DNA of 64,000 nucleotides from Prorocentrum cordatum (GCA_963575745.1 CAUYUJ010000213.1:1-64000), one strand, 5' to 3'; counted from the first letter of the stretch, positions 5,777 to 55,300 are shown. Translations and numbers: made by a program. Notes: generated by a model not told the origin, from the sequence alone.

Positions 5777-5966
5777 TTAAGTCGGGCCTGTCCCCCTACA
5801 GGGGGTTTTCGACGAACAATAAAAGATACCCAAAACATAGTCACAAAATAGTCCAAACATAGTCTGGGGACTATTTCTGGATTATTTGTTTACCTTGTCG
5901 GGGTATTTTTAGGGCATTTTTTTTTTTCGCCAAACATCCCCCTGTAGGGGGACAGGCCCGACTTAA
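5777..5966. mobile_element. MITE family E (TIR TTAAGTCGGGCCTGTCCCCCTACAGGGG), 8-bp TSD TCCTACCC, hAT-like
   Basis: Perfect ~28-bp TIRs with TCCTACCC on both flanks. An 8-bp TSD is typical of hAT elements. Confidence 0.9.
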
Positions 5967-19464: not shown

Positions 19465-19512
<48 letters not shown>

Positions 19513-19552
19513 CTAGTAGTAGTAGTAGTACTAGTAGTAGTAGTCAGTAAAA

Positions 19553-19619
<67 letters not shown>

Positions 19620-19884: not shown

Positions 19885-19917
<33 letters not shown>

Positions 19918-19983
19918 AGTCGTAAAGTGTAGTAGTAGTAGTAGTAGTCGTAGTAGTAGTATAGTGAGTTAGTATAATAGTAG

Positions 19984-20037
<54 letters not shown>

Positions 20038-20673
20038 ATACTAGTCGTAGTAGTAGTAGTCGTAGTAGTCGTAGTAGGCGTAGTAGTCGTAGTAGTCGTA
20101 GTAGTCGTAGCAGTAGCAGTAGCAGTAGCAGTAGCAGTAGCAGTAGCAGTAGCAGTAGCAGTAGAAGTAGCAGTAGCAGTAGCAGTAGCAGTAGCAGTAG
20201 CAGTCGCAGTCGCAGTCGCAGTCGCAGTAGCAGTAGCATTAAAGCACAGTAGCAGTACAGTAGCATAGCCAGTAGGCATTCGCAGTAGCAGTAGCAGGTA
20301 GCAGTGTAGTAGTATTAGTAGTTCAGTAGTAGCAGTAGGTAGTAGTAGTAGTAGTAGAAGAAGTAGTAAGTATTAGTAGTAGTCGTAGTAGTAGTAGTAG
20401 TCAGTAGTAAGTCGTAGTAGTAAGTAGTAGTGATACTAGTAGTAGTAGTATATATTCGTAGTAGTCGTAGTAGCGTAGTAGTCCGTAGTAGTCGTAGTAG
20501 TCGTAGCAGTACAGTAGCAGTACAGGAGCTAAGCATTAGCAGTAGCCTGTGCAGTTAGCATACAGTAGCAGTAGCAGTAAGGCAGTAGTAGTAGCAGTAG
20601 CAGTACAGTAGCAGTAGCAGTAGCAGTAGCAGTAGCAGTAGTCAGTAGCAGTAGCAGTAGCAGTAGCAGTAGC

Positions 20674-20710
<37 letters not shown>

Positions 20711-20764
20711 ATAGTAGTAGTAGTAGTAGTAGTACCAGTAGTAGTAGTTGCAGTAGTAGTAGTA

Positions 20765-20795
<31 letters not shown>

Positions 20796-20800
20796 CAGTT

Positions 20801-20851
<51 letters not shown>

Positions 20852-20858
20852 GTAGTAG

Positions 20859-20890
<32 letters not shown>

Positions 20891-20975
20891 GCAGTAGTAG
20901 TAGTAGTAGTAATAGTAGTAGTAGTAGTAGTAAGTAGTAGTAGTAGGAAAAGTATGAGTAGTAGTAGTAGCAGTA

Positions 20976-21033
<58 letters not shown>

Positions 21034-21050
21034 AAGTAGTAGTAGTAGTC

Positions 21051-21086
<36 letters not shown>

Positions 21087-21126
21087 TGTGTAGTAGTAGT
21101 AATAGTTGTAGTAGTAGCAGTAGTAA

Positions 21127-21164
<38 letters not shown>

Positions 21165-21200
21165 ATACTAGTCGTAGTAGTAGTAGTCGCAGTCGTAGTC

Positions 21201-21257
<57 letters not shown>

Positions 21258-21258
21258 A

Positions 21259-21295
<37 letters not shown>

Positions 21296-21367
21296 CGTAG
21301 TAGTAGTAGTAGTGGTAGTGGTAGTAGTAGTAGTTGTAGTAGTAGTAGTTGTTGTTGTTGTTGTTGT
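19465..21367. repeat. (TAG)n/(TAGCAG)n microsatellite with embedded poly-A (~19548-19616)
   Basis: Direct reading. Confidence 0.95.
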
Positions 21368-24131
21368 AGAAACCTGGTGGCCAGGTGGGTCTCCCGTGCA
21401 CTGGCCCAGGGTGCTGAGCAGTGTCTCAGCGGTGCGAGTTTGCCGGTGTCGGTTGATCTGCGTCGTCCCCAGAACCTCTGCCCGTTCAGCGACGATGTGC
21501 CCATGGCCGTACGACCGGATGAACTCGATTGCCCTGCCGGACGGGTGGTTTCCCGACTCGAACACTAACATGTTGCGATGCTCGCTGCTGCGAACCCGTC
21601 GTTGTCGGATCGAGCAACCCTGTGAGGGCCGTGGGCGCTGTACTCGCAGGTTGTGTTCCAATGCATGTGCGCAGGCTGGCCTGTTCTGGGGTATCTTGTG
21701 CTGGCGTCCCACTACGTCTCTTCCACTACACCCGTCCGTGGGTTTGTCCTGTCCAATGCTGGAACCCTCTGTGCTCCTTTGCAGGGGCGCGTGACAGTCA
21801 CTGGCGACCTGTGCGGAACTCTCCGGCTGTGCAGCAGCAAGCGTGCTTTACGTGGCGGTTCAGTGTTTAGTTGCAAGGGAGCCGTGTGTTTTCACCTTCG
21901 TGCTGGCAGCGAGCTCCTGGAGGGCAAAATGCCACTCCCCCTTCCTCCCGTGTCTCCTTCATATCGGCTCCTGGACCGACGTTTATTTCGGTGGCGGTGC
22001 CACGGGGGAAGCAGAAAGCAGAGCTTTCCTCCTAATCTTCATTATTTTGGGCTTGTTTTTTCGTAACAGTCATTACCGCGGGGCGAGGTGGCTGGTGACG
22101 TCACGATTCGCGCTGGCGCTGTCTAATTTCTAGACGGCGCCGGCGCGAACCGTGACGTTACCAGGTGGGGAAGGGGGAGTGGGGGCCCCCTCCCTTTGTA
22201 ACGGCCGCCCTCCTTCCCCACTCTCCATGCCCTCTAACCCCCTGCCTCATCCCCCCTCCTCCTCCTCCTCCCCGCCATCCTCCCCTCGCCGCGGCGACGC
22301 CACTGACATTGCCACGATCGCGACGCCGGCGTCGGTGGCGGCGCCGGCGCCAGCGGCGACTTCGACGGCGAGGCTGATGGTCGACGGCGGCGGCCGCGCA
22401 GCGGCCGCTGCGCCTCAGGAGGGAGAGAAACGCACAGACAGAATTGATCGTCGACTCCCAGGCAGACATGGGAAAATATGGGACTTTCGGCGAGGACCAT
22501 CGAGGAGCATCCTTGATCATTTCGGGAGAAAAACACGCACGGAAGCGAACGAAAACACAGGGAATGGACGTCCGAGCGATGGCCAGTGGAAATGGGGGGG
22601 AAGACGAAGACCCAGAAAATACAAGAACGTGTGGGGAATCCTGTTGTCTGTGTCTATTTCTTGGTGTGTCCCTGGGCCCCTTCAGTCAGGAGGGAAAAAT
22701 CACACAGACACAATTAATCGTCGATCCCCAGGAAAACATAGGAAAATATGGGAGGTGGGGGGAAGACGAAAACCCAGAAAATACAGGAACGTGTGGGGAA
22801 TCCTGTTGTCTGTGTCTCTTTCTTGGTGTGTCCCTGGGCCCCTTCGGAGGCCGCCCTTCGCGCCACGGCTCCCCGCCCGGCAGGCCGCCACCAACGGCAG
22901 CGCCGCGGCCGCAAGGCGACTCCCCGCGCAGCCGCGCGCGCGCCGCCGCGCGCGCCCGGGGCGTTGGCTGCCGCTGCTGAGCCTCCTCCTCCTCCTCCTC
23001 CTCCTCCTCCTCTTCCTCCTCCTCCTCCTCCTCAAGGGGCCCTTGGCATCGCTCGGACGTGTGCATGCTTACTTCGGCGAGGACCATGGAGGAGCATCCT
23101 CGATCATTTGGCGAAAAAGCCACGCACTAAACCGAAAAAAAACAGGGAATAGACGTCCGCACGATGGCGAGCCAGGGGCTCTTGGCATCGCTCGGACGTG
23201 TGCATGTTTCTTTCGGCCATCGAGGAGCATCCTTGATCACCGAGCCGGAAAAAAAAATCACGCACGAAACCGACAATATGCACGGGGAGTGGACGCCCGG
23301 GGGGGGATATCATGGCGGGGGGCATGATGTTTCCTCAGATTTCATGGCGCCGCTTCTTATTTCATTACGTCCCTGGCCCCCCCGCTGGGCCGCGCACATG
23401 CCGCCGGTCATGATTTGCACCCCCCCCTCTTGGACACCCCCCTCTTGGCCGCTCCCGACTCTCGGCGAGGACCATCGAGGAGCATCCTTGATCCCCGAGC
23501 CGGAAAAAAAACACGCACGAAACCTACAATATGCACGGGGAGTGGACGTCCGACCGATGGCAAGGGCCTGCAGCGGGCCGCGCAGGAGGGGGGCTCTGTT
23601 CGGCGGCGAGCCGGGGGGGGTGAGCGAGGAGGGGCGAGCCTTGTGTCGGGTCTGTCCCCCTACAAGGGGATTTTCGACGAAAAATAAATCATACCCCAAA
23701 CATGCCCCAAAAAGGCTAAAACATAGTCAACAAATAGTCCCCAGGGCGGCGGCGGCAGGCCGCGGCACAGCCCTGCCCGGCGGCGGCGGAGTCAGGGCGC
23801 GGCCGCCTGTCGCTCCCGCTGCCAGGCGGCGGCGGCGGCGGGCCGCGGCGCGGCCCTGCCCAGCGGCGGCGGGGTCAGCGCGCGGCCGCCTGGCGCTCCC
23901 CAGAGCCCCGCGGCCCCGCGCGGCTGCCGGGCGGCGGCGGCGAACCGCGGCGCGGCCCTGCCCGGTGGCGGCGGCGGCCACGGCGCGGCCCCCGCCGGGG
24001 CATGCCCACTCGGGCGCAGAAGAGTGCGAATGCGACGCACTGGACGGTGCAGTCCGCGGACCCGCGCGTCCTGAAGAACGTGGCTGCAAGGTTCGGGGTG
24101 GACGAAGAGGGGGCGCCTCGGCAAAGGGGCG

Positions 24132-24326
24132 CGGTAGGTTCGCGTCGTGTCGGCCGTCGGCAACCCCGCCGTGGGCTCTCAAGGTTGAAGGCTGAACGCC
24201 GCCAGTGACCCAGAATCGCCCCGTGTTGAACGATCCGCCGTTTCGGGAACGGCCGACCGTTCAAAGTTGAACGATCCCCGCGGTGTCAGGAACCAGCGCC
24301 GGGGTCGACGCGACGCGAACCTATCG
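24132..24326. mobile_element. TIR element (GGTAGGTTCGCGTCG...CGACGCGAACCTATC); second copy ~45953-46141
   Basis: Inverted ends and colinear similarity of the two copies (GACCCAGAA...GATCCCCGCGG.GTCAGGA). Confidence 0.75.
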
Positions 24327-25620
24327 CATTCGCCCTCGTCGCGGACGAGTGCTCCGCGAGCTGGCTCCGTGAGCTGCTTCGCCCCCCCTGTACTGCCCCC
24401 GCCCCCTTCCCCGTCCATCCCCGAAAGGCTGCCAAAAGAAGTTGCCCAAACCCGGTGGGGCCTCTCGGCGACCATCGGCGTTCGCGGGGCGGACGGCAAG
24501 ACGCTCGGTTTCGTGCTCTCCCAGCCGCGGAAGTACGACGCAGTGAGCCGGTTGCGGGGGGCCCCGAGATATACGCCACCACCACCTCCATTCCCCCCTC
24601 GCCCCCTCCTAGGAGAGAGGAAACGAAGAGGAGGGAGGAGGAGGGGAGGGCGATGGAGGGGGGAGGGGGGGAAAGAAGAGAGAGGGAGCGAAAAGGAGGG
24701 AGGTGGTGGTGGTGTATATCTTCGGGCCCCGCAGGTTGGTTGCGCTCGCGTGCAAAGCGGCGAACGCGCCCTTCGTGGCGCTGCCGGACCAGGAGCATCA
24801 GCAGCCTCCGGACCAGGAGCAGGAGCAGCTAGGCACCGGCTCTGGCCCCGCAGGCGCCGGCCCAGCCCCGGCGGCCGCCCCTCCCTGCCCTGGCGGAGGC
24901 GGCGCCAGCCCCTGCGTCCGCGACGCCGACGCCTGCGGCGCGCCTGACGCCAGCGCAGCCGCGGCGGCATCGGCGCCGCCAGCGGCAGCGGAGGCGTCGC
25001 GGGCCCCGGCGGCCGCGGCGCCGACGCCGCCAGCGGCGGTGCTGGCGCTCAAGCTGCGCGACCTGCTGGCGCTCGAGCTGCCGCTCAAGCGACGGCGCCT
25101 GCAGGCGCGCGGGCGCTCAAGCGCGCGCGGGTACGTCGCGAGGGGGGCGGTTCCATGAGGGGCCCGGGGGCGCTTGCGCGATGGGCCCCCCTGGCCCAGA
25201 TCGAAGACGCCTGCGGCGAATCGCCGCCGCCCCCGTTCTTTTCGTTGGGAAGCGTCGATGCGACCGAAAGTTTCGCCAGAGCTTGCCCGAACTTTCAGAC
25301 TATGTATTCCCGAGCCGTCGTGGACAACATTAGGGGAACGCATGGGGGAGGAAGAGGATGAGGCCTCTTGGGGGCCTACTCGGGCACTGTCGGCACATCC
25401 TGGGAGCTTCGCTGGGGTCCCTTGCGAGGCCTCTCGGGGGCCTCCCTTGGCCTTCTGGGGCCTCTGGGGACTTCTCGGGGGCCTTCTTGGCCGTCTCGGG
25501 GTGTTCCAGGCTCGTCAGACGCCGGCGGGGGCCGTCTCGGGGGCCTCTCCAGGTCGTCCTGGGGCTTTTCCGGGGCGCATCAGGGCCGTCGCGACGGCCG
25601 TCTTGGGCGTCTTGGGGGCC

Positions 25621-26195
25621 TCGTTCTTGCGAGAACGTGGACGTTCTCGCAGGTTGGCGCGCCCGCTCTTGCGAGAACGTGGACGTTCTCGCAAGATGGC
25701 GCGCCCGCTCTCGCGAGAACGTGGACGTTCTCGCAAGATGGTTCTCGCAAGATGGGGCGCCCGCTCTTGCGAGAGCGTGGGCGTTCTCGCAAGATGGCGC
25801 GCCCGCTCTTGCGAGAACGTGGACGTTCTCGCACGATGGCGCGCCCGTTCTTCCGAGAACGGGCCCCTTCTCGCAAGATGGCGCGCCCGCTCTTGCGAGA
25901 ACGGGGCGTCATCGTGGGATGGCGCGCCAATTCTTGCCACAGCGGGCCGGTTCTCGTAAGATGGCGCGCTTGTTCGTGCGGGGACGGGCCTGTTCTCGCG
26001 CGATGGCGCGCCCGTTCTTCCGAGAGCGGGCCCCTTCGCGCAAGATGGCGCGCCGGTTCGTAGGAAAACGGGCCCGTTTGCCAATTCTTGCGAGCGCGGG
26101 CCCGTTCTCGCAAGATGGCGCGCCCATTCTTGCGAGAACGGGCCTGTTCTCGCATGATGGTGCGCTGGTTCTTGCGGGAACGGGCCCATTCTCGT
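25621..26195. repeat. Tandem array of a 42-bp unit with internal palindrome
   Basis: Unit GCGAGAACGTGGACGTTCTCGCAAGATGGCGCGCCCGCTCTT; copies degenerate toward the 3' end. Confidence 0.9.
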
Positions 26196-27989
26196 CTTGG
26201 GGCCCTCTTTGGGCCGTCATGGGGCCCTCTTTGGGCCGTCATGGGGCCCTCTTTGGGCCGTCGTGGCAGCCTTCTGGAGGCCTCGTGGGCGATTTTGGGG
26301 CGATCTAGGGGGCCTTTTGGGCCGTCTTGAGGCCGACAAGAAGCAAATGCCAACATCATAAGCCAACTTATTCCAAATTAATGATATTGGCCTCTTCGGG
26401 CCTTCCTGGAGGAGCTCTTGGAAGCCTCTTCGGCCCATCTTGGAAGCCATATTGGGGGCCTCTGGGGCCGCCCTGGGCTAAGGCCATCTTATACTGTCTC
26501 GGGTGCATCTTGGGCTGTATTGGAGGCGTCTGCGAGCCATCTTAGCCGTCTCGGAGGCCGCGTTGGAGGCTTCTTGGAGGTCTTGGAGGCTTCTTGGGGC
26601 CCTTTTGGGGCCGTCTTGGGGGCTTTTTTGGGCCGCCATGGGGCCATGTCGGAGGCCTCGCGGGCGATCTTGGGGCGATCTTGGGGACCTCCTGGGCCGT
26701 CTTGAGCCGTCGGAAGAACGCAAACAAGCAAATGCCACCGTCTTGAGCCGTCGGAAGGCCGATGAGAAGCAAATGCCAAAATGCATTCGAAGCCCGAAGG
26801 GAAATGAACGGTTTTGGCTTCTGGGCTCTCCTGGAGGACCTCTGGGAAGCTTCTAGACCCGTCTTGGAGGCCTCCTGGGGGCTTCCCCGGAGTGGTTTTA
26901 CGCAATGTTGAGCCAGTATTAGGCCGTCTTCGGTTGATATTGTGCCGTCTTGGAGGCATCTTGGGGCCATCTTGGCCGCCTTGGAGAGGCCATCTCGGCA
27001 GTCTTGGAGGCATCTTAGGGGCCATTTTGGACCATCTTGGAGCCGTCCGGAGCAGAACAACCCTTTGCAACGCGGCCTTCCGTGGCCTTCCAGGACCCCG
27101 GCGGGCTGGGCCGAAGTCCCGGGGATAGTTGCGTTGGAGAAGAAACAAAACCAACACCGAAAGGGTCTAGCACGCCAGGCGCCCCTATAATGCATCCCCA
27201 GGGGGCTATCCCGCCACAGTGCCTGGGTGGTGGGTCAGAGGCCTCGTGGATGTTGGTTGGGATCTCGTGGTTTGCCTCTTCGGGTTTCTCGGTGGCCTCT
27301 TGGGGCCTTTTGGGGGGCCTCTTGGGGATTCTCGGGCGCCCCTTGGGGCGCCCCTGGCGCCCCTTGGGGGGCCCCTGGGGCCCCTCGGTGCCTGGGGGGG
27401 GCCTCTTGGGGGTTTCTTGGGGTTTTCTTGGGGCGGGAAGGGGTGGGGAACTCGAGTTCGGGGCCCCCTCGGAGGCCGCGATCCTCGCGAGCGGTGCCAA
27501 ACAATGCCCTTCCCAAAGTCTTGCGAGAAGACGCGCCGCACCCGAAGGGAGCGGTTGCAAACCCCAAGAGATTTTGGGCGCCGGTTCCCTCGACGACTTA
27601 TCCGGACTGAGTACTGAGGCTCAGAGAAAGGACCTGAGGACACACCCATTTCGCGCTTTTGGCGCGTTGGCGAATTTGTTCATGCGGGCGCGGGGAATTT
27701 CGGACCCCCGGAGCCTCTTGAAAGGAAAGGCCGCGCACTCGACGTCAGGGCAGGAGGGGGGCTTTCCGAGGAGACCGCCCCCCTCGCGCCGCCCGCGTCA
27801 ATGTCGAGGGGAGGAAAGCGACACTGACGCCAACAGGGCGCCCACCTCTAGCGAGGAGGTCCACGATGCCCCCCCGAGCTGGACATGCGGGATATCTCGA
27901 GCGGGAGGGGGGGGGCCGCACCGCCAGGGGATCCCCCCCAGCTCCTCGCGGCGTTGGTGTCGCCTTTGCTCGCCCCTATCATTGCGAAC

Positions 27990-30900
27990 CGACATCAGGC
28001 AGCAGCGGACATCCAGGCAGTAGCGGACATTGGCAAGGGCACCTTCGGCCAGGTGAAAAAGGTCGACCATCGAAACGATACAGATGGCGCTGTTCGCGTC
28101 GGGAAATATCGTCGCAACGGCCGGGTTCGCGCCGAAATCTTCTTGGGCGGCTGGGCTCCGGGGGATGTCCGGGGAGCGCCGGTGCGTTTCCCGAAACAGT
28201 GCTTGCATTTTTCGGGGTGCTGGTTTGTTCGGCGGCATGGCGGGGGCCAGTATTCCTCGAGCGCGACGCACAAAGGGGCTGTCACCACGCAGCTCGCCTT
28301 GCGCAGTTACGCCACATAGGTTGCACCAGCTAGTATTGTTTGGGGGCCACGCTGGCTGGTACAGTAGTTTTTCCCAGCCAGACAGGCCCTTCGCGCCTCG
28401 ACGCGCCCCGGGAGCAGCCAGTCAGACAGTTCCGTGGCAGCGAAGATCTTCGACGACCCCGAGGGCCCGCCGTGCGCCAAACGGCCTTCGGAGGCACGCA
28501 GGTCTCGCGCAGCGGGGGTGGTGCCAGATTGTAGGCTGTACATTCGGAGTTGATTAGTAGGCCGACACTGCAAACTGAAGGGTGCCCTTGTGTCCTGCCT
28601 ATCCCGCCCCGCGCCATCTGCGCGTCCTCTGGTTGTTCGGGGCAACGTTGTCTTCGGAAGAGTCTTGTGTCCTCTCGGGCGTCCTGCCCAATCGACTCCG
28701 ACTGTAACCGTGCCGCGCCCCGAGCCGCAGCCCGCAATCAGGGAGCCCGTCCTCCCTTTACTCCTCCTCCTCCTCCACCCCTCCCTCATCTCCCCCCTCC
28801 TCCGTCGCCCCCCCCCCCCTCCTCCGCTGGGCCCCCGTGCCGTCGCCGCCGATCTTGCGCTCAGCAGGGCGCCGAGCGAGAGGCGGCGGCGTTCGCCGCC
28901 GTCCCGCCGCGCCCCGACGTCTTGCGACTCCTGGACGTCACGATGATGCGGGCGCCCAGGGCGCCCGACCAGCGTTGGCCGCGAGAGCGGCCCGGTTTCG
29001 TTGAAGAGGCCCCCGTCGCGCCGGAATGGGCCCGCCCCCGCGACTTCGGCAGCGAGAACAGGCTCGTTCTCCCGAAACGGGCTGCGCGAGCAGGCCCGTT
29101 CTCGGCGCGGCGGGGGCTGTCTCAGCGAAAATGGGTCCACCCTCGCGACCGCGCGGGGTTTTGGGGCGCCTGGGGGCGAAGCCGGCGCTCCTCTTCCCTT
29201 TGTGCGGCGGCTCCGTGGCCGCGCTGCTCGAGGATGGTCAGGAGTGGCCGGAGGATCGGGCCTGGCAGCTGGCCATCCATGCGCGCTGCCGCGCGATTCC
29301 GCCAGCGCGGTCGGGCGTGCGTCCGGGCGGGCGAGCGAACGCCAGGGGCGGATCAGGATTTTTTAAAATCGCTAAGAATTCGATCGAATTTTCACTTCGG
29401 GTACTTCCCGCCCGGGGGCGCCCAGAACGCAGGATCGCGGTTGCAAAAACAGCGCGTTGGGTCTGGTGCTGAAGTGTGATATGACCCGACGTACGCCTAT
29501 TGCTGCAAGCGCAGTGGCGGACCTCCCTGCTGCGGGCGTTGGACCACGTGCATTCGCATAGCGTCATACACACCGACGTGAAGCCCGCTAACGTGCTCTA
29601 CCTGGCGGCAACGCCCCCGCGATTCGTCCTGGGCGATCTGGGCGCGGCGGAGGCGCTCGACCCCGCCTGGCGGGTCGCGGTGGACAGCGGCGCCGGGCTG
29701 GAGCTCCTGGAGGTTGGCACAATCTGGTACCGAGCTCCAGAACTTTGCCTCGGCGACTCCCAGTACGGATCGCCCGTCGACGCATGGGCGGTCGGGTGCG
29801 CCGTGGCCGAGGTCTTGCGGGCCGCCCCGCTATCAAAGACGCCTACGGCGAATCACCGCCAGGTTTGGAAGCGCATATGTGGCTGAGTGTTTCGCCAGAA
29901 CTTGCCAAAATCATCGGATGCAGTGTTCCCCGAGCCGTTGTTGAAAGCTTGCGGGGAACATGGGGGGAGGGGGAGGAGGAGGAGGAGGAGGAGGCGTCTT
30001 TGGGGCAGTTCTCTGGGCCTCGCGGAGGCTTCCTCTGGTTTTTTGGAGGCAAATTGGGGGCGCCCTTGGGCTTCCACGGGGCTTTTGGGGGCTTCCTGGA
30101 GGTCTCTCTGGCCGTTTTGAAGCGTTTCTGGCCTGTCTGCCGACGTCGGAAGCCGTCTTGGGGGCCTCCGGGTCGTCTGGCGGACCTCTTGTCTTGGGCG
30201 TCTCGGGGGCTTCTCGAGGCCCTCTCGGGGCCGCCCTGAGGGGCTCGTTCTCGAGAGAACGGGTTCGTTCTCGTAAGATGGCGCGCCCGCTCTTGCGAGA
30301 ACGCGGGCGTTCTCGCAAGATGGCGCGCCCGCTCTTGCAAGAACGTGGACGTTCTCGCAAGATGGCGCGCCCGCTCTTGCGAGAACGCGGACGTTCTCGC
30401 AAGATGGGGCGCCCGCTCTTGCGAGAACGTGGACGTCCGCTCTTGCGAGAACGTGGGCTTTCTCGCAAGATGGCGCGCCCGCTCTGGCGAGAACGTGGAA
30501 GTTCTCGCACCATGGGGCGCCCGCTCGTGCGAGAACGTGGACGTTCTCGCACCATGGGGCGCCCGCTCTTGCGAGAACGTGGACGTTCTCGCAAGACGGC
30601 GCGCCCGCTCTTGCGAGAACGTGGACGTTCTCGCAAGATGGCGCGCCCGCCCTTGCGAGAACGTGGACGTTCTCATAACATGGGGCGTCCGTTCTTGCGA
30701 GAACGCGGACGTTCTCGCAAGATGGCGCGCCCGCTCTTTCGAGGACGTGGACGTTCTCGCAAGATGGCGCGCCCGCTCTTGCGAGAACAGGCCCGTTCTC
30801 GTGAGTGGCGGCCGGAGCACTCCAAATGGCGACGGCGGCTTCCCAAAAATGCCATCTTGGGCACCCCCGAATGCCATCTTGGGCACCCCGACTGTCATCT

Positions 30901-31560
30901 TGGATACTCCCTCGGGCCCCTGGATCGGGGACGGCGGCTTCCCGGCGCAGAGCATCGTCGACCTGCTGTTCCAGATTTGGAGGCAGTTCGGGCCGCCAGC
31001 GGTTGGTGGCTACCTCGAAGGTCTGGCGTCGTCGTCAGGGGCCTGGAAGGTCGGGCCGCCGGCGTTCCCGAGCCCGGCGTTCCCGGGCCCGGCGTCCGGC
31101 GGCGCCCCCGGCGTCGCTGGCGCTTGCACCCGGTCCCTGAGCACGGGGGCGCTGCAGCTCGTGGAGCCCCTCCTGGAGCCGGAGCCTGGAGCCCGAGCCC
31201 GAGCCCGAGCAGCCGCGGGCGTCCGGGGCAGGCCCGACCGGGCCGACGAAGACGACGACGACGACGACGACCGGCGGCGGCGGCGGCGGCGGCGGCGGCA
31301 GGCAGAAGACCGGTCGCTCTCCAAATCCTGCCTCATCTCTCCACTTCTTCTCCCTTCCTTCCCCTTGCTTCGCCCGCTCCCCCCCTGCGGGTGTGCATTC
31401 CCCAGGATGAAGCTGGTGGCCGGCGAGCTCGCTGCCGAGCGAGGGCCGTTTTCGCTGGTGGCCGGCGCGCTCGAAATCGAGGTCTTGGAGTGGCTCCAGG
31501 CCGACCCCTGGTGGGGCGCAGCCGCCAGGCATGAGGGGCCTTCCCTCCGCGCCGCTACCA
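27990..31560 (+). CDS. Fragmented (multi-exon or interrupted) Ser/Thr protein kinase, CDK/CMGC-like
   Basis: Subdomains in order on separate segments: IGKGTFGQV (~28029-28055); AEREAAAFAAVPPRPDVLRLLDV (~28870-28940); LFPLCGGSVAALLEDGQEWPEDRAWQLAIH (~29190-29280); LLRALDHVHSHSVIHTDVKPANVL..FVLGDLG..GTIWYRAPE..YGSPVDAWAVGC (29527-29832); FPAQSIVDLLFQIWRQFG..LVEPLLEPEP (~30939-31190). The VAIK lysine was not located, so it may be a pseudogene. Confidence 0.75.
29527..29832 (+). CDS. Kinase catalytic-core exon (subdomains VIa-IX)
   Basis: HTDVKPAN, DLG, GTIWYRAPE, DAWAVGC in one open frame. Confidence 0.9.
30243..30802. repeat. Second array of the 42-bp palindromic unit
   Basis: Same unit, about 13 copies. 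Gives 14-aa periodic spurious ORFs (LLRERGRSRKMARP). Confidence 0.9.
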
Positions 31561-32211
31561 TGAGTTTGAGAGAGGGCCCCCCCCGCCCACCCTGTCCCCG
31601 TTATCCTCCTTGTCTGTTCGCCCCTCCCCCGTCCTCTTCCTCCTCTTCCAGTTTGATCTCCCCTGGCTCCTTGCCCCCCGCCTCTCCTTCCCCCCCCCTC
31701 GCCCACCCCGGCCGGGAGGAGGAGGACGAGGGGGGCGAGGAGGGGGAGGAGGAGGAGGAGGACAGGAGGGGAGGGGGGGGAGGAGGAGGATGAGGAGGAC
31801 GGGGAAGGGAAGGAGGATAGCGACGCGAACGTGGGAACGGAAGAGGAGGAGGAGGAGGAGGGGGAGGAGGAGGAGGAGGAGGAGGGGGGGGAAGGAGGTG
31901 GGGGAAGCGGTCGATAGAGGAAGGGGGGGGGGGGGGGGAGGGGGCGGGCAGGAGAAGGGGGAGGCGGAGGACGGGGCATGGAGGAGGAGGAGGACGACAA
32001 GGACGAGGAGGAGGAGGATGCGGTGTAGAGGACGAGGAGGGAAATGATGATGATGATGAGGGGGAGGAGGAGGAGGCAGAGGAAAGGGGGGAGGGCGCGG
32101 AGGTGGAGGGGGCAGGGGGAGAAGAGGGGGGGGCCCCCCGCGTCTGATGATATGACACCGGAGAAAACCCCAATCGGATTTTTGTCGGGTTTATATGACT
32201 ATTTGGCATTT

Positions 32212-34235
32212 GGGCCATAGGACTATAGGGCTATAGGGCAGTTGGGCTATTGGGCTATTGGGCAATAAGGCTGTAGGGCTATTGGGCTACAGGGCATATA
32301 GGGCTACAGGGCGAAAGGACCATAGGGCCATAGGGCAACAGGGCTATAGGGCTATAGGGCCATAGGGCCATAGGGCTATAGGGCTATAGGGCTATAGGGC
32401 TGTAGGGCTATAGGGCTATAGGGCTATAGGGCTCTAGGGCGGCTATACCATAGGGCTACAGGGCTATACGGCTATAGGGCTATAGGCTATGAGGCTATAG
32501 GACTCTAGGGCTATAGGTCTATAGGGCTATGAGGCTATAGGGCAATAGGACTATAGGGCTATAGGGCTATAGGGCTATAGGGCCATAGGGCTATAGGGCT
32601 ACAGGGCTGTACGGCTATAGGGCTACAGGGCTATAGGCCTATAGGTCTATAGGGCTACAGGGCTACAGGGTGATAGGGCGATAAGGCCATAGGGCTACAG
32701 GGCTACAGGGCTATAGGGCTAAAGGGATACAGGGCTATAGGGCTATAGGGCTATAGGGCTACAGGGCTACAGGGCTATGGGCCTGTAGGGCTATAGGGCT
32801 ATTGGGCTATAAAAGGCTACAGGGCTATAGGGCCATACGGCCACAGGCTATGGGGATATTTGGCTATAAGGCTATAGGGCTATGGGGCTATAGGGCTATA
32901 AGGCTACAGGGCTCTAGGGCTATTGGGCTATAAGGCTACAGGGCTATAGGGCTGTAGGGCTATAGGGTCATAGGGTCATAGGGCTATAGGGCTATATGGC
33001 TAAGGGGCTAAGGGCTGTTGGGCTATCGGGCTATAAGGCTATAGGGATATGGGGCTATAGGGCTGTAGGTCTATGGGGCTACAGGGCGATAGGGCCATAG
33101 GGCTACAGGGCCATAGGGCCATAGGGCTATAGGACTACAGGGCTATAGGGCTATAGGGCTATAGGGCTATAGGGCTATGATGTTGTAGGGCTGTAGGGCT
33201 ATTGGGCTGTTGGGCCATAGGGCTACAAGGCGATATGGCCATAGGGCTATAGGGCTATTGGGCTACAGGGCTACAGGGCTATAGGTCTATAGGTCTATAG
33301 GGCTATAGGGCTATAGGGCTACAAGGCCATAGGGCTACAGGGTTATTGGGCTGTTGGGCTATAGGGCTAGGGGTAGTAGGGCTATAGGGCTATGGGGCCA
33401 TAGGGCTACAGGTCTGTTGGGCCATAGGGTCATAGGGCTGTATGGCTATAGGGCTACAGGGCTATATGGCTATAGGGCTATAGGGCTATGGGGCTGTAGA
33501 GCGATTGGGCCAGAGGGCTATAGGGCTATAGGGCCATAGGGCTACAGGGGTATAAGGCTATTGGGCAAGAGGGCTATAGGACTATAGGGCTATAGGGCTA
33601 TAGGGCTATAGGGCTATGGGGCTATAGGGCTACAGGGCTACATAACTATAAGGCTATTGGGCGATTGGGCTTTAAGGCTCTAGGGCTATAGGGCTGTAGG
33701 GCTATAGGTCTATAGGGCTATAGGGCTGTAGGTCTGTTGGGCTATAGGGCTATTGGGCTACACGGCTGTAGGGCTATAGGGATGTAGGGCCATAGGTCTA
33801 TAGGGCGATAGGGCGATAGGGTCATGGGGCTACAGGGATATAGGGCTATAGGGCTGCAGGGCTATATATTAGGGCTATGGGGCTGTCGGGCTATAGGGCT
33901 ATTGGGCTATTGGGCTATTGGGCCCTAGGTCTACAAGGCCACAGGGCTATTGGGCTCTTGGGCTATAAGGCTACAGGGCTATGGGTCTATAGGGCAATAG
34001 GGCCTGTGGGCTATAGGGCGATAGGGCTACAGGGCCATAGGGCTACAGGGCTATTGGGCTATAGGGCTACATCGGGCTATAGGGCTATAGGGCTATATTT
34101 ATATGGCTATAGGGCCGTAGGGGTACAGGGCCATAGGCCTAGAGAACCATTGGGATACAGGGCTATAGGGCTATAGGGCTATAGGATTCTTATAAGGCTA
34201 TGCGGCTACAGGGCGATAGTCCCCGGCTACAGGCT
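32212..34235. repeat. (GGGCTATA)n octamer satellite, about 2 kb
   Basis: Direct reading; variants GGGCTACA, GGGCCATA, GGGCTATT. Confidence 0.95.
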
Positions 34236-34376
34236 AAAACAATACTGTACTGTTCCCTACCTAGGCTCTGCCCAGAAGGGTTCTTACTCTCTTAGCTTAA
34301 AACGGCCCGGCAGTGCACAGTGCCCGGGCGGTTCCCCCAGTCCCCGCCCCGCGGTTCCCCAAGTCCCCAGGGAGCA

Positions 34377-34733
34377 TTAGCTTTAGCTTTAGCTTTAGCT
34401 TAGCTTGAGCTTAGCTTTAGCTTAGCTTTAGCTTAGCTTTATCTAGCTTTAGCTCAGCTTTAGTTTAGCGTTGGCTTAGCTTTAGCTTAGCTTCAGCTTA
34501 GCGCTACCTTAGCGTTAGCTTAGCTTTAGCTTAACTTTAGCTTAGCTTCAGCTTAGTTTTAGATTTAGCTTTAGCTTTAGCTTAACTTTAGCTTAGCTGT
34601 AGCTCAGCTGTAGCTCAGCTTTAGCTTAGCTTTCGCTTAGCTTTAGCTCAACTTTAGCTTAGCTTTAGCTTAGCTTTAGCTTAGCCTTAGCTTAGCTGTA
34701 GCTTCGCTGTAGCTTAGCTTTAGCTTAGCTTTA
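34377..34733. repeat. (TTAGC/TTTAGC)n satellite
   Basis: Direct reading. Confidence 0.95.
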
Positions 34734-36260
34734 CTGTTACTACTAATGCTGCTTTCCTAGGGGCTCCAACGCCTAGGTAGGGTCGCACTGGGATAAGTTT
34801 ATTTTTGTTTGGGGTATTTTTTATTTTTCGTCGAAAATCCCCCTGTAGGGGGACAGGCCCGACTTGAGGCGAGCCTCTTCGGGAGGCTCGAAAGGCCCCG
34901 GGACTTCCGAGGAGCTTCCTGGGCCTGCTCCGTACGACGCGCACAGAGCTGTTCGGGAGGCCAGGGGTCCGAGGATGCCCAGGCCTTCTGGCTTCCCCCC
35001 CCCCTCTCTCGCCGCCGAGGCAGGTCAGGTGTGCGTTTGGGGGCTCTCCGAGGGCCCACGCAGCTTCAAGCTGGTTCGATGCCAACGCAACTCGAGTTCG
35101 AGTCCAGCTCGGCCGAATTCGACGGACGTTCGACGCTGCGTCGATGCGTGAGCGGAGGGGACGGTCCCCAGAACAAGGATCTCAATCAGGGGCGGGGAGA
35201 GTTCCACACCCTCTTGTGAGTCAGGCCAGTGTTGCCTCACACGCACGACTCAGCCGTTCGCTTGACTTCGCTTCACTCCCGCTCGCCGACAAGAGATCGA
35301 GCAGAGGCGCCAACAAATCGAGACGCTTTCTTCCGCCAGTTTTGGCCTCTGGGGGCTGTCGTTGTCGCTGCTCCCTGAGAGCCGTGTATTCTAGGTGTTT
35401 TTTTGACCGTGACCGCTTCTCCGTCTTGGGCCGCCATGCAGGTGGCCGGGTGTTCTGCAACTCGTGCGGGCTGCCAGTGTGCACAAACCGTGTGCGGCAA
35501 CGGCCCCACGAGGGACGGGAGAGGTCGAGCAGCGACGCGTGGTGTCGTGGCTCGAGGGGTCAGCGCCCCTCTCCCATTTCTGGCCGAGCATCCCTTGGCA
35601 TCGCTCGGACTTGTGCATTTGTTCTTTGGCGAGGACCATCGAGGACCATCCTGGACCATCGAGCAAAAACAACACGCACGAAACCGACAAATGTACGGGA
35701 AATTGACATCCATGGCGAGATCCCCCCCCCTCTTCTTATGCTCCTCGGGATCAGGGCGCCGCCACCACGACAGGCCGTCTTTGCGGCTGGAGCGTCCACG
35801 ACAGCCTCGCATCGAAGGCCCGGTACTGGACATAGTACCTAGTCTGAAGCATCGGAGAGACTCTGAGAGGGGAAGGGAGGGTGCTGGAGATGCTTCGGTG
35901 ATTGAGAAACCCATGGGCACCGGTACTGCACCACCAGAGGGACATCAGCATGCATAGCCTCACTGACGTACTCCCTCCCTCTCCTTCCGCTCTCACACCA
36001 AGAACAGGGAGGAAAAACGGCAGAGGAGGGTAGGAGAAGCGCTTCCATAGGTCTCCCTTCTGGGCATAGGGCCTATTCTGTCGCCAGCCGCCGAATCGGC
36101 TCGATCCTGAGCTTACTTGGAGGCTGTGTGCTTAGATGGCAAGCGTGTTCAAAATGGCACCATACGCTCCTGCCTTGCAGACTACTGGCCTGCCTCCCAA
36201 TGGTGGTGAGGTCGTGGGTGTCCCTTGTGCTCACCATGGAAGTGCTTTGCTTCGGACGGG

Positions 36261-36417
36261 GCCAGGAGGAGGACAAGTCCGTTCCGGAGCGTTCTGGAAC
36301 GCTCTTAGAGCGTTCTGGATTGCTTGAGAAGGCTGCGGAGTCCGAGACATCTTTCAGAGCCGCAAGATCTGAGAGATTCTCGATTTATCCTCACCCGAAT
36401 TTATCCTCGTCCTGGCT
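36261..36417. mobile_element. Short TIR element (GCCAGGANGAGGA...TCCTCGTCCTGGC); second copy ~47110-47270
   Basis: Shared core CATCTTTCAGAGCCGC.AGATCT.AGAGATTCTCGATT.ATCCTCACCCGA. Confidence 0.7.
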
Positions 36418-39063: not shown

Positions 39064-39257
39064 TGAAGTCGGGCCTGTCCCCTCTACAGGGGGATCTTCG
39101 AGGGAAAATGCAAGATATCCCCAACAATATCAAAAAATAGTCCAAACCTAGTCTGGGGACTGTTTTTTTAGTATTTGTTTTACCTTTTTGGAGTATTTTT
39201 GGGGTATTTCTTAGTTTTCGTCGAAAACACCCCTGTAGGGGGACACGCCCGACATAA
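39064..39257. mobile_element. MITE family E, TSD GTTTAGA(C/T)
   Basis: Same TIR and AT-rich core as 5777-5966. Confidence 0.85.
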
Positions 39258-52300: not shown

Positions 52301-55300
52301 GGTCGGCGACGCGGCGGCGGAGGCCGTGTTGACAGTGCGCGGCGGCGGCGGCGCTGCGGCGGCCGCAGGCGTTCGGTCGTCCGCGCGCGTGCCAGCGGTC
52401 GGCGCCGAGCGCGCGGTTGAGACCGTGCCGCCGAAGATGTTGTTCCCGATCCCAGGTAGATCGGAGGAGGGCCATTCTCAGAGGAGGGCAAGGCAGTTAC
52501 CCGTACCGCTACCCTCGCCTCCTTTTCCCCCTCTTGGGCCTCCCGGGAGGCCCTGGTCGCCGCCGGCGGAGTCGCCTCGCTGGTCAGAACGCACCCGGGA
52601 GCGGTCTGGGGAGTAGCGGTATTGGTGCTTTCTGAGTTCCCCACGCTCGATGCTCGTTCCTGGGAGCCTTGGGCGGCGACATTGAGGTCAGCCGTTATTT
52701 GTATCTGGACCGCGTTGAAACTGCATGTGGCCCTTCCTGTTCCTCCTATCCCTCCTCGTTCTTCTCGCCCTCCTTGTGAATAGGCGAATCTGGTTCAAAT
52801 CTGGTCCCGAATTCGATCCAGGTCCAGTCCAAATCAGGCCCAAATGGGACAGCGTTGGGGGCCAGGCAAGTTCCCATGGAACGGGCACCACAGGGCCACT
52901 CGAGAACGGCGGCCCTCGTTTGCCTTTTTCGTTCTTGTTGGGACTCGTGGAGGCTTCTCGTCGCCACGACTGGATCCGCGTCGGAAAACGGGTCGGGATG
53001 GGCTCTGCATGGGCTGGGCCTGGCGACCGGTTTTGAGCGGATGTGGGCTTGGCGGGAGGGCGGCCGTTCTCTCTGACGACCTTCCTCCGAGTAGAGTCGA
53101 GGGCGTGTCTAACTCCAAGAAGAGTGTGATAGACATCAAGGGTGCCTCGTACAGATATCCGAGCGCGGCCAGCTATGTGTTGATCGACGTGTGTGCCAAG
53201 GTCACCATGTCGAGCAGGGTGGCCATCATCGGACCGAATGGCTCTGGCAAGAGCACGCTCCTGGCGCTGCTCTGCGGCGAGATCAGGCCTTCTCCTGACG
53301 AGAAGGGCGGGGTTGGTGAGGTCAACCGGCACAGGGCTTTGAGACTGGCGTACATCTCGCAGAGCCACGCCTTCCACCTGGCTGACTACGCCCGTTGCAG
53401 CGCGGTGCAGTACGTCCAGCACCGCTACCAGAACGGGTACGACGAGGAGCTCCAGAAGAGGCTGAACTCGCCGTCCAGCGAGACCGAGGAGGCGGCTTTG
53501 GCCTCCCTCGCCCGCAGGTTCGGGAAGTCTGGCAGCAGGGTCGAGGCGGTCGTCTCCCGCACGAGGCGCCGCGGCGAGTGGAGGTACGAGGTCCAGTGGC
53601 GGGACCTCTCGGAGAAGCAGAACACCCTGGAGCCCCTGGCGACACTGCGGCGGCTGGGCGTCGAGAGGATGGCGACGGCGCTGGACGAGCGGCTGGCGGC
53701 AGCGCAGGCCGGCACGGACGACAGGCCGCTGACCCAGAGGGAGATAGTGAAGCACTTCGAGAATTTCGGCCTCCCGGAGGAGCTCGTGGCCAACAGGGCC
53801 GTCGGCAGCTACTCGGGCGGCCAGAAGTCGAAGCTCATCCTCGGGGCGGCCCTCTGGACCAAGCCGCACGTGGTGTGTCTAGACTCGGCGGCGAGCGAGG
53901 GGGGGAAGTGAGAAGCAGAAGGCCTTTCAGAGGGCGGTGGGACTTCTCTCAGAAGCCCTCGCGCCTTCTGAGAAGCTTTGTCTGTGTCTTCGGGGAAGGC
54001 TTAAGTCGCGCGTGCCCCCCTACAGGGGGAATATCCAGAAATAATACAAAAATAGTCTGGGGACGGGTTGTTTTACTATTTTTGAGTATGTGGTGGGCAT
54101 GTTTTGGTTTTTTGTTATATTTGTCGCCCAACATCCCCCTGTAGGGGGACACGCCCGACCTAAGGGAAGGCTTAGAACACTTCTCAGAAGGCCAGGGGCC
54201 TCCCGAGCCTCTTGAGGAGGCCTTCGCCGTCTCGCTTCTTCCCCCCCCCGCCCACCGCCGACGGACGAGCCCACGAACTTCCTGGATGCCTCGGGCTGCA
54301 CGCCTGCGACCGCCGAGCGCCGCCTCCCCGGCTGCTCCGGGCCCCCATGCGCTCTGGGTGCGTCCGGCCTCGTCCTCGGGGGGCTCGGGGCGGGGAGACT
54401 CGGCGGCGAGCGAGGGGGGGACGCGAGAAGGAGAAGGCCTTCTCAGAAGGCTCGGAGGTCCCCGAGAAGTTTTCTGAGCCTTCCCCGAAGACACAGGAAA
54501 CTTCTCAGGCGCGAGGGCTTCTGAGAGGTCCCGCCGCCTTCTGAGAGGACCTTCTGCTTCTCACTTCCCCCCCCCCGCTCACCGCTGGGAGACAAGAGAG
54601 GGGAGACCGCGTGGGCCGTCAAGGGCAGGACGGGGACGTCACAGGGGTGCTTGCATGAGGAGCTGGGCGAGCGGCATGGTCGGCATGTGGTGTGGAGTTC
54701 CTACTTCCAAGGACTGGGTGGATGATTATTGTGGATCCCCCGCCCGACGGTGCCCATTTTGCGATTTTGTCCATGCGCCCCCCTGGTGCTAGCATGCAAA
54801 TTGTGTTACTAGAGCCCCCTGGCTACAGCAACTGCAGTCAGTGTTATACTTTGTGGTCTCATCGGCTTGCGTGTAAAGCAGCACATCAACATGTATATCC
54901 TGAACCCTCGATACCCGCCCTCGTCGTCTTCGACTGTATCCCCTCGGTTGTGTGTCTGCCTGACTTGCCACGTGTAGTAAGCGCAGGACGAGGAGTGAGA
55001 CAGGACAGAAAGAGAGAGATGGAGAGAGAAACTGAGAATGAGAAAGCGAGGAGGACAGCAGTGCGGGAAGGGAGCCACGAAGGGCATCGAAGGTGCTACG
55101 AGGGCAGGGACAGAGCTGCGAAAGGAAGGCGACTGCGGAACCACGATGGGCAGCGAGGGGCATCGAGGGCGGGCGAAGGGCAGCGACGGGCGACTGCGGT
55201 CCCTGACGAGCGGGTCGGGCGGGCGGATCCAGATGGTCGGGTCAATCGGACGGGTCGCTGAAGCGTGAGTCCTGCAGGCATGGCCAGGAAGTCTCCAGCG

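What the first reader, a model, noticed from the sequence alone, without database searches (positions are those of the whole stretch)
23641..34867. 11-kb Pack-TIR-like element carrying a protein kinase
Seen: the two ends of a MITE family that is 160-195 bp elsewhere (5777, 39064, 54001) are 11.2 kb apart here and share a perfect 8-bp TSD GGCGAGCC. Between them lie a kinase, two 42-bp palindromic arrays and terminal satellites; no transposase is visible. Inference: either a non-autonomous hAT-like element that mobilises a kinase as cargo, or a MITE split by a later ~11-kb insertion (~23744-34785) of unknown type. Either would be a route to kinase family expansion.
Basis: partly seen in the sequence, partly recalled or inferred. 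Interest (0 to 1): 0.78.

Follow-up and report, generated by a model that had tools for sequence, protein, structure and literature searches.

The report
Split MITE enclosing a kinase gene copy
In a dinoflagellate genome, the two halves of a small hairpin-shaped transposon lie 11 kb apart around a partial copy of a kinase gene, and it cannot yet be told whether this package ever moved as a unit.

Summary
A ~190-bp palindromic MITE family with 8-bp target-site duplications (TSDs) has three intact copies in the window. A fourth copy is split exactly at its hairpin loop: L arm 23641-23744, R arm 34787-34867, both flanked by GGCGAGCC.

The window matches Prorocentrum cordatum. The 11 kb between the arms looks like ordinary genomic DNA:
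- a multi-exon CDK-like kinase gene region on the + strand, whose introns hold repeats;
- long satellite arrays;
- a nested, high-copy 528-bp TIR element that ends 4 nt from the R arm.
No transposase was found.

A paralogous copy of at least 23826-31502 (86-94% amino-acid identity) lies at another locus with different flanks. It is annotated as CAK0871433.1, a chimera of a DPH5 fragment and the kinase. Only this one other near-identical protein was found, so large kinase family expansion is not supported.

I could not reach the genome. Whether the second copy carries the same arms is therefore untested. My odds are about 0.5 for in-situ filling of the MITE's hairpin centre and 0.33 for a mobile Pack-type element. 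"hAT-like" rests on TSD length alone.

The parts
23633..23640 (.). Left copy of the 8-bp target-site duplication, GGCGAGCC
   Evidence: Read. Identical to 34868-34875.
23641..23744 (+). L arm of the MITE (long arm). It starts TTGTGTCGGGTCTGTCCCCCTACAAGGGG and ends ...AATAGTCCCCAG, in the family's hairpin loop.
   Evidence: (profile positions 1-105, E 1.4e-28).
23745..24002 (+). GC-rich 83-bp tandem units: unit 1 at 23745-23827, unit 2 at 23828-23910 (90% alike), and a degenerate third at 23930-24002. Confident homology to the paralogue P0001 starts at unit 2 (~23826).
   Evidence: family D11; 56 of 59 aa identical from there to 23999.
23826..31502 (+). Block shared with the paralogous locus that encodes CAK0871433.1 (P0001). 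It is the kinase gene region with its introns.
   Evidence: tblastn of P0001 aa 140-829 gives 86-94% identity per HSP. P0001 aa 1-139 and 830-1190 have no match anywhere in the window.
24760..25104 (+). Low-complexity Ala/Pro-rich 'exon' of the P0001-type gene model, ending ...LELPLKRRRLQ before a GC donor
25200..26195 (+). First copy of a ~1-kb intronic repeat. It contains a 42-bp palindromic array (25625-26194).
   Evidence: 70.4% identity to 29832-30802 over 1031 columns. Boundaries. Array.
27885..28118 (+). Kinase N-lobe exon: Met at 27885, G-loop ADIGKGTFGQVKK at 28023-28061, and a possible beta3 segment GAVRVGKY up to 28118. A GT donor follows 28061.
   Evidence: (aligned to CDK-like N-termini, weak E 0.097-0.37).
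28871..28948 (+). Exon AEREAAAFAAVPPRPDVLRLLDVTMM (alphaC/beta4-like), preceded by CAG
   Evidence: Matches P0001 aa ~381-406 by eye.
29185..29268 (+). Candidate beta5/alphaD exon ALLFPLCGGSVAALLEDGQEWPEDRAWQ. Not in the P0001 model.
   Evidence: Read. This is an inference from kinase subdomain patterns that I recall.
29512..29832 (+). Catalytic-core exon: HTDVKPANV, DLG, WYRAPE, DAWAVGC
   Evidence: Pkinase E 2e-21, profile 103-202/263. Best solved relatives are CDKL1/3 and CDK6/9/8. Also.
29832..30802 (+). Second copy of the ~1-kb repeat, with a 42-bp array at 30255-30788. It starts exactly where kinase homology stops (...AAPL), so it fills the intron between subdomains IX and X.
30927..31184 (+). 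Kinase C-lobe exon (FPAQSIVDLLFQIWRQFGPP ... ALQLVEPLLEPE)
31407..31499 (+). Last segment shared with P0001 (MKLVAGELAAERGPF...EVLEWLQ)
   Evidence: (94% over 34 aa).
31715..32076 (+). (GGA)n purine-rich microsatellite
32212..34185 (+). GGGCTATA satellite, 247 copies
34255..34782 (.). Nested 528-bp element with perfect 12-bp TIRs (CCCTACCTAGGC / GCCTAGGTAGGG) around the TTAGCTTTAGC x33 array (34377-34733). It is very high-copy in run X1. Its right end lies 4 nt from the R arm.
   Evidence: (the only 2 matches in the window), and 23 (summed depth ~6e4 in bins 34144-35031 against ~6 in the unique flank).
34787..34867 (+). R arm of the MITE (short arm), ending ...CCCCCTGTAGGGGGACAGGCCCGACTTGA
   Evidence: profile 106-192, E 6e-20. 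The inner boundary is uncertain between 34787 and 34808.
34868..34875 (.). Right copy of the TSD, GGCGAGCC
5777..5966 (.). Intact family member, 190 bp, TSD TCCTACCC
39064..39257 (.). Intact family member, 194 bp, TSD GTTTAGAC/GTTTAGAT
54001..54163 (.). Family member with an internal deletion, 163 bp, TSD GGGAAGGC. It lies ~100 bp past an ABC_tran exon ORF.

Best explanation
One copy of an abundant palindromic MITE with 8-bp TSDs inserted at GGCGAGCC. Its hairpin tip was later opened and filled in place with ordinary genomic DNA. The fill consists of:
- a >=7.7-kb DNA-level copy of a CDK-like kinase gene region, introns and intronic repeats included, whose paralogue sits at another locus;
- microsatellite arrays;
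- a nested 528-bp high-copy TIR element.

Likely mechanism (inferred): the ~90-bp arms pair into a hairpin or cruciform. A break or stalled synthesis at the loop, or at the stem-loop junction, is then repaired by copying ectopic templates, or the site is hit by another transposon.

On this reading the 11.2-kb structure is a nest, not a vehicle, and the kinase copy is a by-product of segmental duplication.

What is shown: the arms, the TSD, the loop position of the break, the paralogue, the nested element, and the absence of a transposase. What is inferred: the order of events and the repair mechanism.
For: 1. The break lies in the family's hairpin loop, and the two arms still pair along their whole length.

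2. At least one independent insertion sits at that same place. The 528-bp TIR element ends 4 nt from the R arm. For a random nested insertion within 11 kb that adjacency is an order-0.1% coincidence by my arithmetic.

3. The interior has no TIRs, LTRs or TSD of its own. No transposase domain was found in 68 of 68 ORFs.

4. The interior looks like normal P. cordatum DNA. It is a gene split by introns that hold high-copy repeats (depth bins). Its satellites resemble four other arrays elsewhere in the window.

5. The paralogue CAK0871433.1 has unrelated flanks: a DPH5 fragment (TP_methylase profile 73-182/212) upstream, and 360 aa with no match in the window downstream. The ~30 aa that precede its first shared unit are GC-rich and do not resemble the translated L arm, with about 4 of 30 identical by my count.

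6. The kinase is low-copy. One other near-identical protein was found, and kinase-exon depth is 4.8-7.4 against 5.9 for the unique flank (the tool warns that depth is not copy number).

7. Palindromes of ~200 bp are known breakage sites (PMC7999016, passages read).
Against: - No known process is shown to place >=7.7 kb exactly at a MITE loop.
- The same geometry is what a long family member would show if the short MITEs are its internal-deletion derivatives.
- The TSD is perfect.
- The L arm ends in ...TCCCCAG|G, a good 3' splice acceptor. If the paralogous locus also had this arm, a gene predictor would start an exon exactly where P0001's shared sequence begins. The P0001 evidence in point 5 is therefore not decisive.
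- Age cannot order the events. TSDs of the four copies differ at 1 of 32 positions (about 1.6% per site). The two block copies differ by roughly 2-5% in nucleotides, inferred from 86-94% amino-acid identity.
- The 14-25% divergence among MITE copies must therefore mostly predate insertion.
Confidence: 0.5

Rival explanations
1. Pack-type mobile composite. The 11.2-kb unit is a long non-autonomous member of the MITE family. It acquired host DNA between its arms and then transposed here as a unit, creating the GGCGAGCC duplication. The paralogous block at the CAK0871433.1 locus is either a sibling insertion or the donor.
For: - It has complete arms in the correct inverted orientation, a perfect 8-bp TSD, no transposase, and coding DNA inside. 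These meet the operational Pack-TYPE criteria quoted from PMC8903248.
- The cargo sits exactly where the loop of the short members is.
- A second copy of the cargo exists in a different genomic context.
- P0001's shared sequence starts at the point that abuts the L arm's CCCCAG acceptor in the window.
- TSD-based and block-based ages are compatible.
Against: - It is a singleton as far as can be seen. packFinder discards singletons as possible false positives.
- At 11 kb, with a whole intron-bearing gene region plus 2.7 kb of satellites, it is atypical cargo.
- The nested TIR element abutting the R arm needs a separate coincidence.
- The outermost bases are off the family majority (TTGTG and TCAAG against TTAAG), though other copies with intact TSDs vary there too.
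- No autonomous partner lies in the window.
Confidence: 0.33
2. The block itself is a discrete mobile or duplicative unit of an unrecognised type. It has a defined left end at the (GGC)n unit, and it landed once in a MITE loop and once next to a DPH5 fragment.
For: Shared homology with P0001 begins at the start of the 83-bp unit. The sequence to its left differs between the two loci.
Against: - The block has no terminal repeats, no TSD and no recognisable enzyme.
- Its right boundary is undefined beyond 31502.
- Only two copies are known.
- The same pattern is expected for any one-off segmental copy.
Confidence: 0.07
3. Assembly artefact. The 11 kb was wrongly placed between the halves of a palindromic repeat.
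For: Palindromes and satellites are hard to assemble. Short contigs of run X1 did not visibly bridge either junction in the rows shown (tables truncated).
Against: - Both outer flanks carry the same 8-bp duplication and the arms are complementary halves. A mis-join would have to occur twice, at exactly the loop.
- X1 contigs match interior unique parts with 0-8 differences in 173-505 nt (table 8).
Confidence: 0.05

Closest known systems
Pack-TYPE transposons of plants (Pack-MULE, Pack-CACTA, Pack-hAT; Gisby & Catoni 2022, PMC8903248, passages read)
   Same: TIRs plus TSD, no transposase, and host coding DNA between the ends.
   Different: Only one copy is known, so mobility is unshown. The cargo is ~11 kb with a whole intron-bearing gene region and kilobase satellites, rather than small gene fragments. 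The ends are ~80-105-bp palindrome arms of a MITE. The host is a dinoflagellate. A search for 'dinoflagellate' + 'Pack-MULE' listed 4 papers, none on such an element by title.
Dinoflagellate introner-like elements with 8-nt TSDs (Polarella glacialis classes 3, 6, 8, 10; Roy et al. bioRxiv 10.1101/2020.10.14.339549, passages read). Introner elements are also reported as enriched in P. cordatum (PMC10666404, passages read).
   Same: Short non-autonomous TIR elements, abundant in a dinoflagellate genome, with 8-nt duplications. One copy here lies in a gene's intron region (54001-54163).
   Different: No sequence comparison with those classes was possible because the supplements are closed. I did not test whether this family supplies splice sites.
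Palindrome-centre breakage (PATRR-type rearrangements; review PMC7999016, passages read)
   Same: A ~190-bp near-palindrome with a short spacer, and a rearrangement junction at its centre.
   Different: Here the outcome is an insertion with both arms kept, not a translocation. The arms are imperfect. No experimental evidence of fragility exists in this organism.
Foldback-type elements with long inverted arms and a variable middle domain (recalled, no call)
   Same: Long arms that make up most of the short members, and a variable middle that can hold unrelated DNA.
   Different: The arms here are not built of tandem subrepeats. No family-level evidence of variable middles was found, since the other 3 copies in the window have only a ~12-nt loop.

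Membership tests
Pack-TYPE transposon | Terminal inverted repeats of a known DNA-transposon family at both ends | tested here: met
   L and R arms match three intact MITE copies. The outer 58 bp of the arms are 93% complementary.
Pack-TYPE transposon | Target-site duplication flanking the ends | tested here: met
   GGCGAGCC at 23633-23640 and 34868-34875. The family uses 8 bp in 4 of 4 copies.
Pack-TYPE transposon | No transposase; contains DNA derived from host coding genes | tested here: met
   68 of 68 interior ORFs of >=100 aa gave only Pkinase. There is a paralogue elsewhere.
Pack-TYPE transposon | Not a singleton: further copies with the same ends at other sites (evidence of mobilisation) | not testable with these tools
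   No genome is held. Four collection scans gave 0 hits. Reads were uninformative at the junctions.
MITE | Short (<~800 bp), non-coding, with TIRs and TSD, and many copies | tested here: met
   This holds for the family. Copies are 163-194 bp with 8-bp TSDs. There are 4 loci in 64 kb. Summed depth is ~755 at 23689 against ~5-6 in unique bins (rough). The split copy itself is 11.2 kb and so is not a MITE as it stands.
hAT superfamily | 8-bp TSD | tested here: met
hAT superfamily | Short TIRs with the usual terminal motif (recalled as YARNG) | tested here: not met
   The termini read TTAAG / TGAAG / TTATG / TTAGG / TTGTG / TCAAG followed by TCGGG. The motif is recalled from memory, not taken from a call.
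hAT superfamily | Related autonomous element encoding a hAT transposase | not testable with these tools
   None was found among 344 ORFs scanned across the window. The rest of the genome could not be searched.
Dinoflagellate introner-like elements | The insertion forms an intron, using splice sites from the TSD or the element end | not tested
   The copy at 54001-54163 lies ~100 bp past an ABC_tran exon ORF, but it does not make up the whole intron. No transcript data were available.
Eukaryotic protein kinase (Pkinase, CMGC/CDK-like) | Catalytic domain with G-loop, beta3 Lys, HRD, DFG and APE | tested here: inconclusive
   The central exon scores E 2e-21 and covers profile positions 103-202/263. 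Best solved relatives are CDKL1/3 and CDK6/9/8. GKGTFG and WYRAPE are present. HRD reads HTD and DFG reads DLG. The beta3 Lys is uncertain (VRVGK). No single spliced ORF could be verified.

The most novel reading that the evidence does not exclude
This is the first gene-carrying (Pack-type) TIR transposon seen in a dinoflagellate. An 11-kb non-autonomous member of an 8-bp-TSD MITE family moves an intron-containing CDK-like kinase gene. The chimeric DPH5-kinase gene CAK0871433.1 is a second insertion, in which the arm's CCCCAG end acts as a splice acceptor. DNA transposition would then join tandem duplication and retroposition as a source of gene duplicates and gene fusions in these giant genomes.
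Probability: 0.3. Interest if true: 0.62.

Novelty: new member of a known kind. Interest (0 to 1): 0.4.

Why it matters
Dinoflagellate gene families are usually said to grow by tandem duplication and retroposition. A TIR element that carries a whole gene region would add a third route, and would explain chimeric gene models such as DPH5-kinase.

If the package never moved, the locus is still useful. It shows the loop of a common palindromic MITE acting as a preferred place for insertion of foreign DNA, with two independent pieces at one loop. It also shows that gene predictors in this genome fuse unrelated fragments and read through 42-bp arrays.

Either way, one look at a single named contig settles it.

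Tried and rejected
- **Whole genome:** none is held for this window.
- **Collection scans:** the L-arm/interior junction 23-mer against metagenome contigs gave 0 hits. The degenerate TIR 25-mer against metagenome, prokaryote-genome and viral contigs also gave 0 hits.
- **Public runs:** 3 were listed and only X1 holds part of the stretch (14% of 832 words). No RNA holder was listed.
- **Laying X1-X3:** contigs on unique parts were at most 505 nt. No row shown bridges 23641, 23744, ~34787 or 34867, and the tables were truncated, so this says nothing about the junctions.
- **Earlier notes of this scan:** nothing by place, by sequence (twice) or by words.
- **C-terminal 391 aa of P0001:** no relative but itself among the 8000 candidates scored. 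The ancestral gene architecture therefore stays unknown.
- **Spliced-leader relic** (21-nt motif, recalled): 0 matches at up to 3 mismatches.
- **Rfam on 22000-36500:** 0 matches.
- **Age argument.** I first took the arms' ~15% divergence from the other copies to mean an old MITE and a young block. I rejected this because TSDs of the four copies are identical at 31 of 32 positions, so most divergence predates insertion.
- **Second L-arm fragment left of the nested element.** The 11-mer AGGCTAAAACA at 34231-34241 scores 22, against a shuffle 95th percentile of 20 and a maximum of 26. That is marginal and I did not use it.
- **tblastn alignment of the window's GRPRHSPARR to DPH5's GRPVYEPPRR.** I judged it a low-complexity coincidence, because that stretch is a tandem copy of unit 2.
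- **Interior as a single TE.** I saw no terminal repeats in the repeat finder output, which showed 25 of 98 inverted pairs. By eye it has no poly-A tail and no Helitron-like ends.
Full report
**What is there.** The window is GC-rich eukaryotic DNA. No genome is held for it. The kinase exon is 97% identical to one NCBI protein of Prorocentrum cordatum, P0001 = CAK0871433.1. Contigs of one public DNA run match unique parts with 0-8 differences in 173-505 nt. I therefore treat the organism as P. cordatum or a very close relative. Its published assembly is 4.15 Gb, repeat-rich and enriched in introner elements (PMC10666404, passages).

**The MITE family.** A 32-nt TIR pattern has 4 matches in the window against 0 in 100 shuffles. 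BLAST and an nhmmer profile find four loci and no solo arms elsewhere.
- Three loci are 163-194-bp near-palindromes. Their DNA MFEs are -39 to -57 kcal/mol, against about -15 to -18 for shuffles.
- Their termini read TTAAGTCGGGCCTGTCCCCCTACAGGGGG.
- Their 8-bp TSDs are TCCTACCC, GTTTAGAC/GTTTAGAT and GGGAAGGC.
- The copies are 70-82% alike pairwise. Across the four copies the TSDs are identical at 31 of 32 positions. Most of the divergence therefore predates insertion, and the insertions are fairly young.

**The split copy.**
- The L arm (23641-23744) aligns to the family's long arm and stops at ...AATAGTCCCCAG, inside the apical loop.
- The R arm (about 34787-34867) is the short arm.
- Both are flanked by GGCGAGCC.
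- Joined in silico, the arms fold as one hairpin at -64.8 kcal/mol, against -16.9 +/- 3.1 for shuffles. At most about a dozen loop bases are missing.

**The interior.**
- It starts with two 83-bp GC-rich tandem units, 90% alike, and a degenerate third.
- From about 23826 to 31502 it is collinear with P0001 aa ~173-829, at 86-94% amino-acid identity per segment. From the start of unit 2, 56 of 59 aa are identical.
- It holds + strand exons of a CMGC/CDK-like kinase:
  - the G-loop GKGTFGQV (28023-28061);
  - an alphaC/beta4-like exon (28871-28948);
  - a candidate beta5/alphaD exon (29185-29268);
  - the catalytic core 29512-29832, with HTD, DLG and WYRAPE (Pkinase E 2e-21; best solved relatives CDKL1/3 and CDK6/9/8);
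  - the C-lobe (30927-31184), and a last shared exon (31407-31499).
- HRD and DFG are altered and the beta3 lysine is unclear. Function is open.
- The two 42-bp palindromic arrays lie inside two copies of a ~1-kb repeat (25200-26195 and 29832-30802, 70% alike). The second copy begins exactly where kinase homology stops, between subdomains IX and X. It is therefore an intron-filling insertion in the gene, not a structural part of the MITE.
- Further right lie (GGA)n and GGGCTATA x247.
- Next comes a separate 528-bp element (34255-34782). It has perfect 12-bp TIRs around the TTAGC array, and these are the only two matches of that 12-mer in the window. It is extremely abundant in run X1, with summed depth ~6e4 against ~6 for the unique flank. 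Its right end is 4 nt from the R arm.
- No transposase domain appears in 68 of 68 interior ORFs. None appears in 276 ORFs of >=110 aa from the rest of the window, three of which overlap the L arm.
- The only other recognisable gene in the window is an eEF3-like ABC_tran gene on the + strand at 50665-53908.
- Kilobase microsatellites also occur at four other places in the window, so the 'terminal satellites' are a property of the genome.

**The paralogue.**
- P0001's first 139 aa are a fragment of DPH5 (TP_methylase profile 73-182 of 212).
- Its last 360 aa have no match in the window and no relative in the protein collection.
- The block therefore exists at a second locus with different neighbours.
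- No further near-identical protein exists among proteins of 73-2000 aa.
- Depth over the kinase exons (4.8-7.4) is like that of the unique flank (5.9), although the tool warns that depth is not copy number.
- Large-scale kinase expansion by this element is not supported.

**What can and cannot be decided.**

The decisive datum is whether the second copy carries the same arms with another TSD. It was out of reach:
- no genome is held;
- four collection scans gave 0 hits;
- the read contigs were too short.

P0001 does not settle the matter. The ~30 aa before its first shared unit do not resemble the translated L arm, which argues against an arm there. But the L arm ends in TCCCCAG|G, a good splice acceptor, so an arm hidden in a predicted intron would give the same protein.

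Ages do not order the events either. TSDs differ by about 1.6% per site, and the two block copies by roughly 2-5% in nucleotides, as inferred from amino-acid identity.

**Why I lean to in-situ filling (0.5 against 0.33).**
- The nested 528-bp element shows that foreign DNA has entered at this MITE's loop at least once independently.
- The interior has no ends of its own. It looks like a random slice of genome: a gene with repeat-laden introns, cut off at both ends relative to the P0001 model.
- It is a singleton with low-copy cargo.
- This genome is visibly a patchwork of duplicated gene fragments, as the truncated DPH5 piece in P0001 shows.
- Palindromes of this size are known break sites (PMC7999016).

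The case for a Pack-type element remains real. By the published operational criteria (PMC8903248), every criterion is met except 'not a singleton'.

**Comparison with known elements.**
- The family resembles the 8-nt-TSD introner-like elements of Polarella (bioRxiv 10.1101/2020.10.14.339549). No sequences could be compared.
- 'hAT-like' is supported only by TSD length.
- I found no report of a Pack-type element in a dinoflagellate. A search for 'dinoflagellate' + 'Pack-MULE' listed 4 papers, none relevant by title. A search for 'dinoflagellate' + 'MITE' + 'terminal inverted repeat' listed 5 papers, none on Prorocentrum.

**Verdict.** This is a real and neatly defined structure of moderate interest. 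Its more exciting reading needs one look at a named contig.

Noticed in passing
window 34255-34782: A 528-bp element with perfect 12-bp TIRs (CCCTACCTAGGC) around a TTAGCTTTAGC x33 array. In run X1 this stretch has summed depth ~6e4-1.3e5, so it is among the most abundant repeats of the genome. Most genomic copies have T where this copy has G at 34771. No clear TSD is visible.
   Followed up: partly
window 25200-26195 and 29832-30802: Two copies of a ~1-kb repeat, 70% alike, each carrying a 42-bp palindromic array. The second copy starts exactly at the end of the kinase exon, between subdomains IX and X, like an intron-creating insertion. The public gene model CAK0871433.1 translates straight through the array (ENVDVLARWRARSC repeats).
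   Followed up: partly
P0001 (CAK0871433.1), not in the window: The public gene model is a chimera: a DPH5 fragment (TP_methylase profile 73-182/212), low-complexity exons, a partial kinase (Pkinase profile 102-191/263), and 360 aa with no relatives. One source also lists the identical sequence under Polarella glacialis.
   Followed up: partly
window 50665-53908 (+): Exons of an ABC_tran protein with a sub-threshold Chromo match. By recall this looks like eEF3/ABCF. The MITE copy at 54001-54163 lies ~100 bp past the last exon ORF.
   Followed up: no
window 15252-15872, 16855-18028, 19625-21349, 46241-46938: Very long microsatellites: (CGA)x207, (TCC)x392, (AGT)x572 and (TGTA)x175. They produce strong skews in composition (bins 16001-22000).
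   Followed up: no
window 23040-23564 and 3731-3862, 8264-8399, 22482-22586, 35592-35719; also 23299-23458 vs 51899-52061 and 60535-60705: The DNA just left of the element is built of dispersed ~130-160-bp repeats with copies on both sides of the element and elsewhere (74-93% alike). In X1 these bins reach depths of 6e3-2e4.
   Followed up: no
window 34231-34241 vs 23713-23723: The 11-mer AGGCTAAAACA from the inner part of the L arm recurs just left of the nested 528-bp element. The flank there is weakly complementary to the inner end of the R arm. This could be a remnant of a duplicated MITE centre, but the score is only marginal against shuffles.
   Followed up: partly
window 28094-28156 (+, other frame): A second alphaC/beta4-like stretch (RREISSQRPGSRRNLLGRLG, aligned to SLREISILKELSHRNIVKLLD at E 0.92). 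It overlaps the end of the G-loop exon in a shifted frame. It may be a frameshift remnant, which would make this kinase copy a pseudogene.
   Followed up: no
window 26152-27483: An intronic stretch of 10-11-bp GGCCTCTTGGG-like repeats with depth in the thousands in X1. Related stretches lie at 48538-48659, 61640-61803 and 62791-62945.
   Followed up: no
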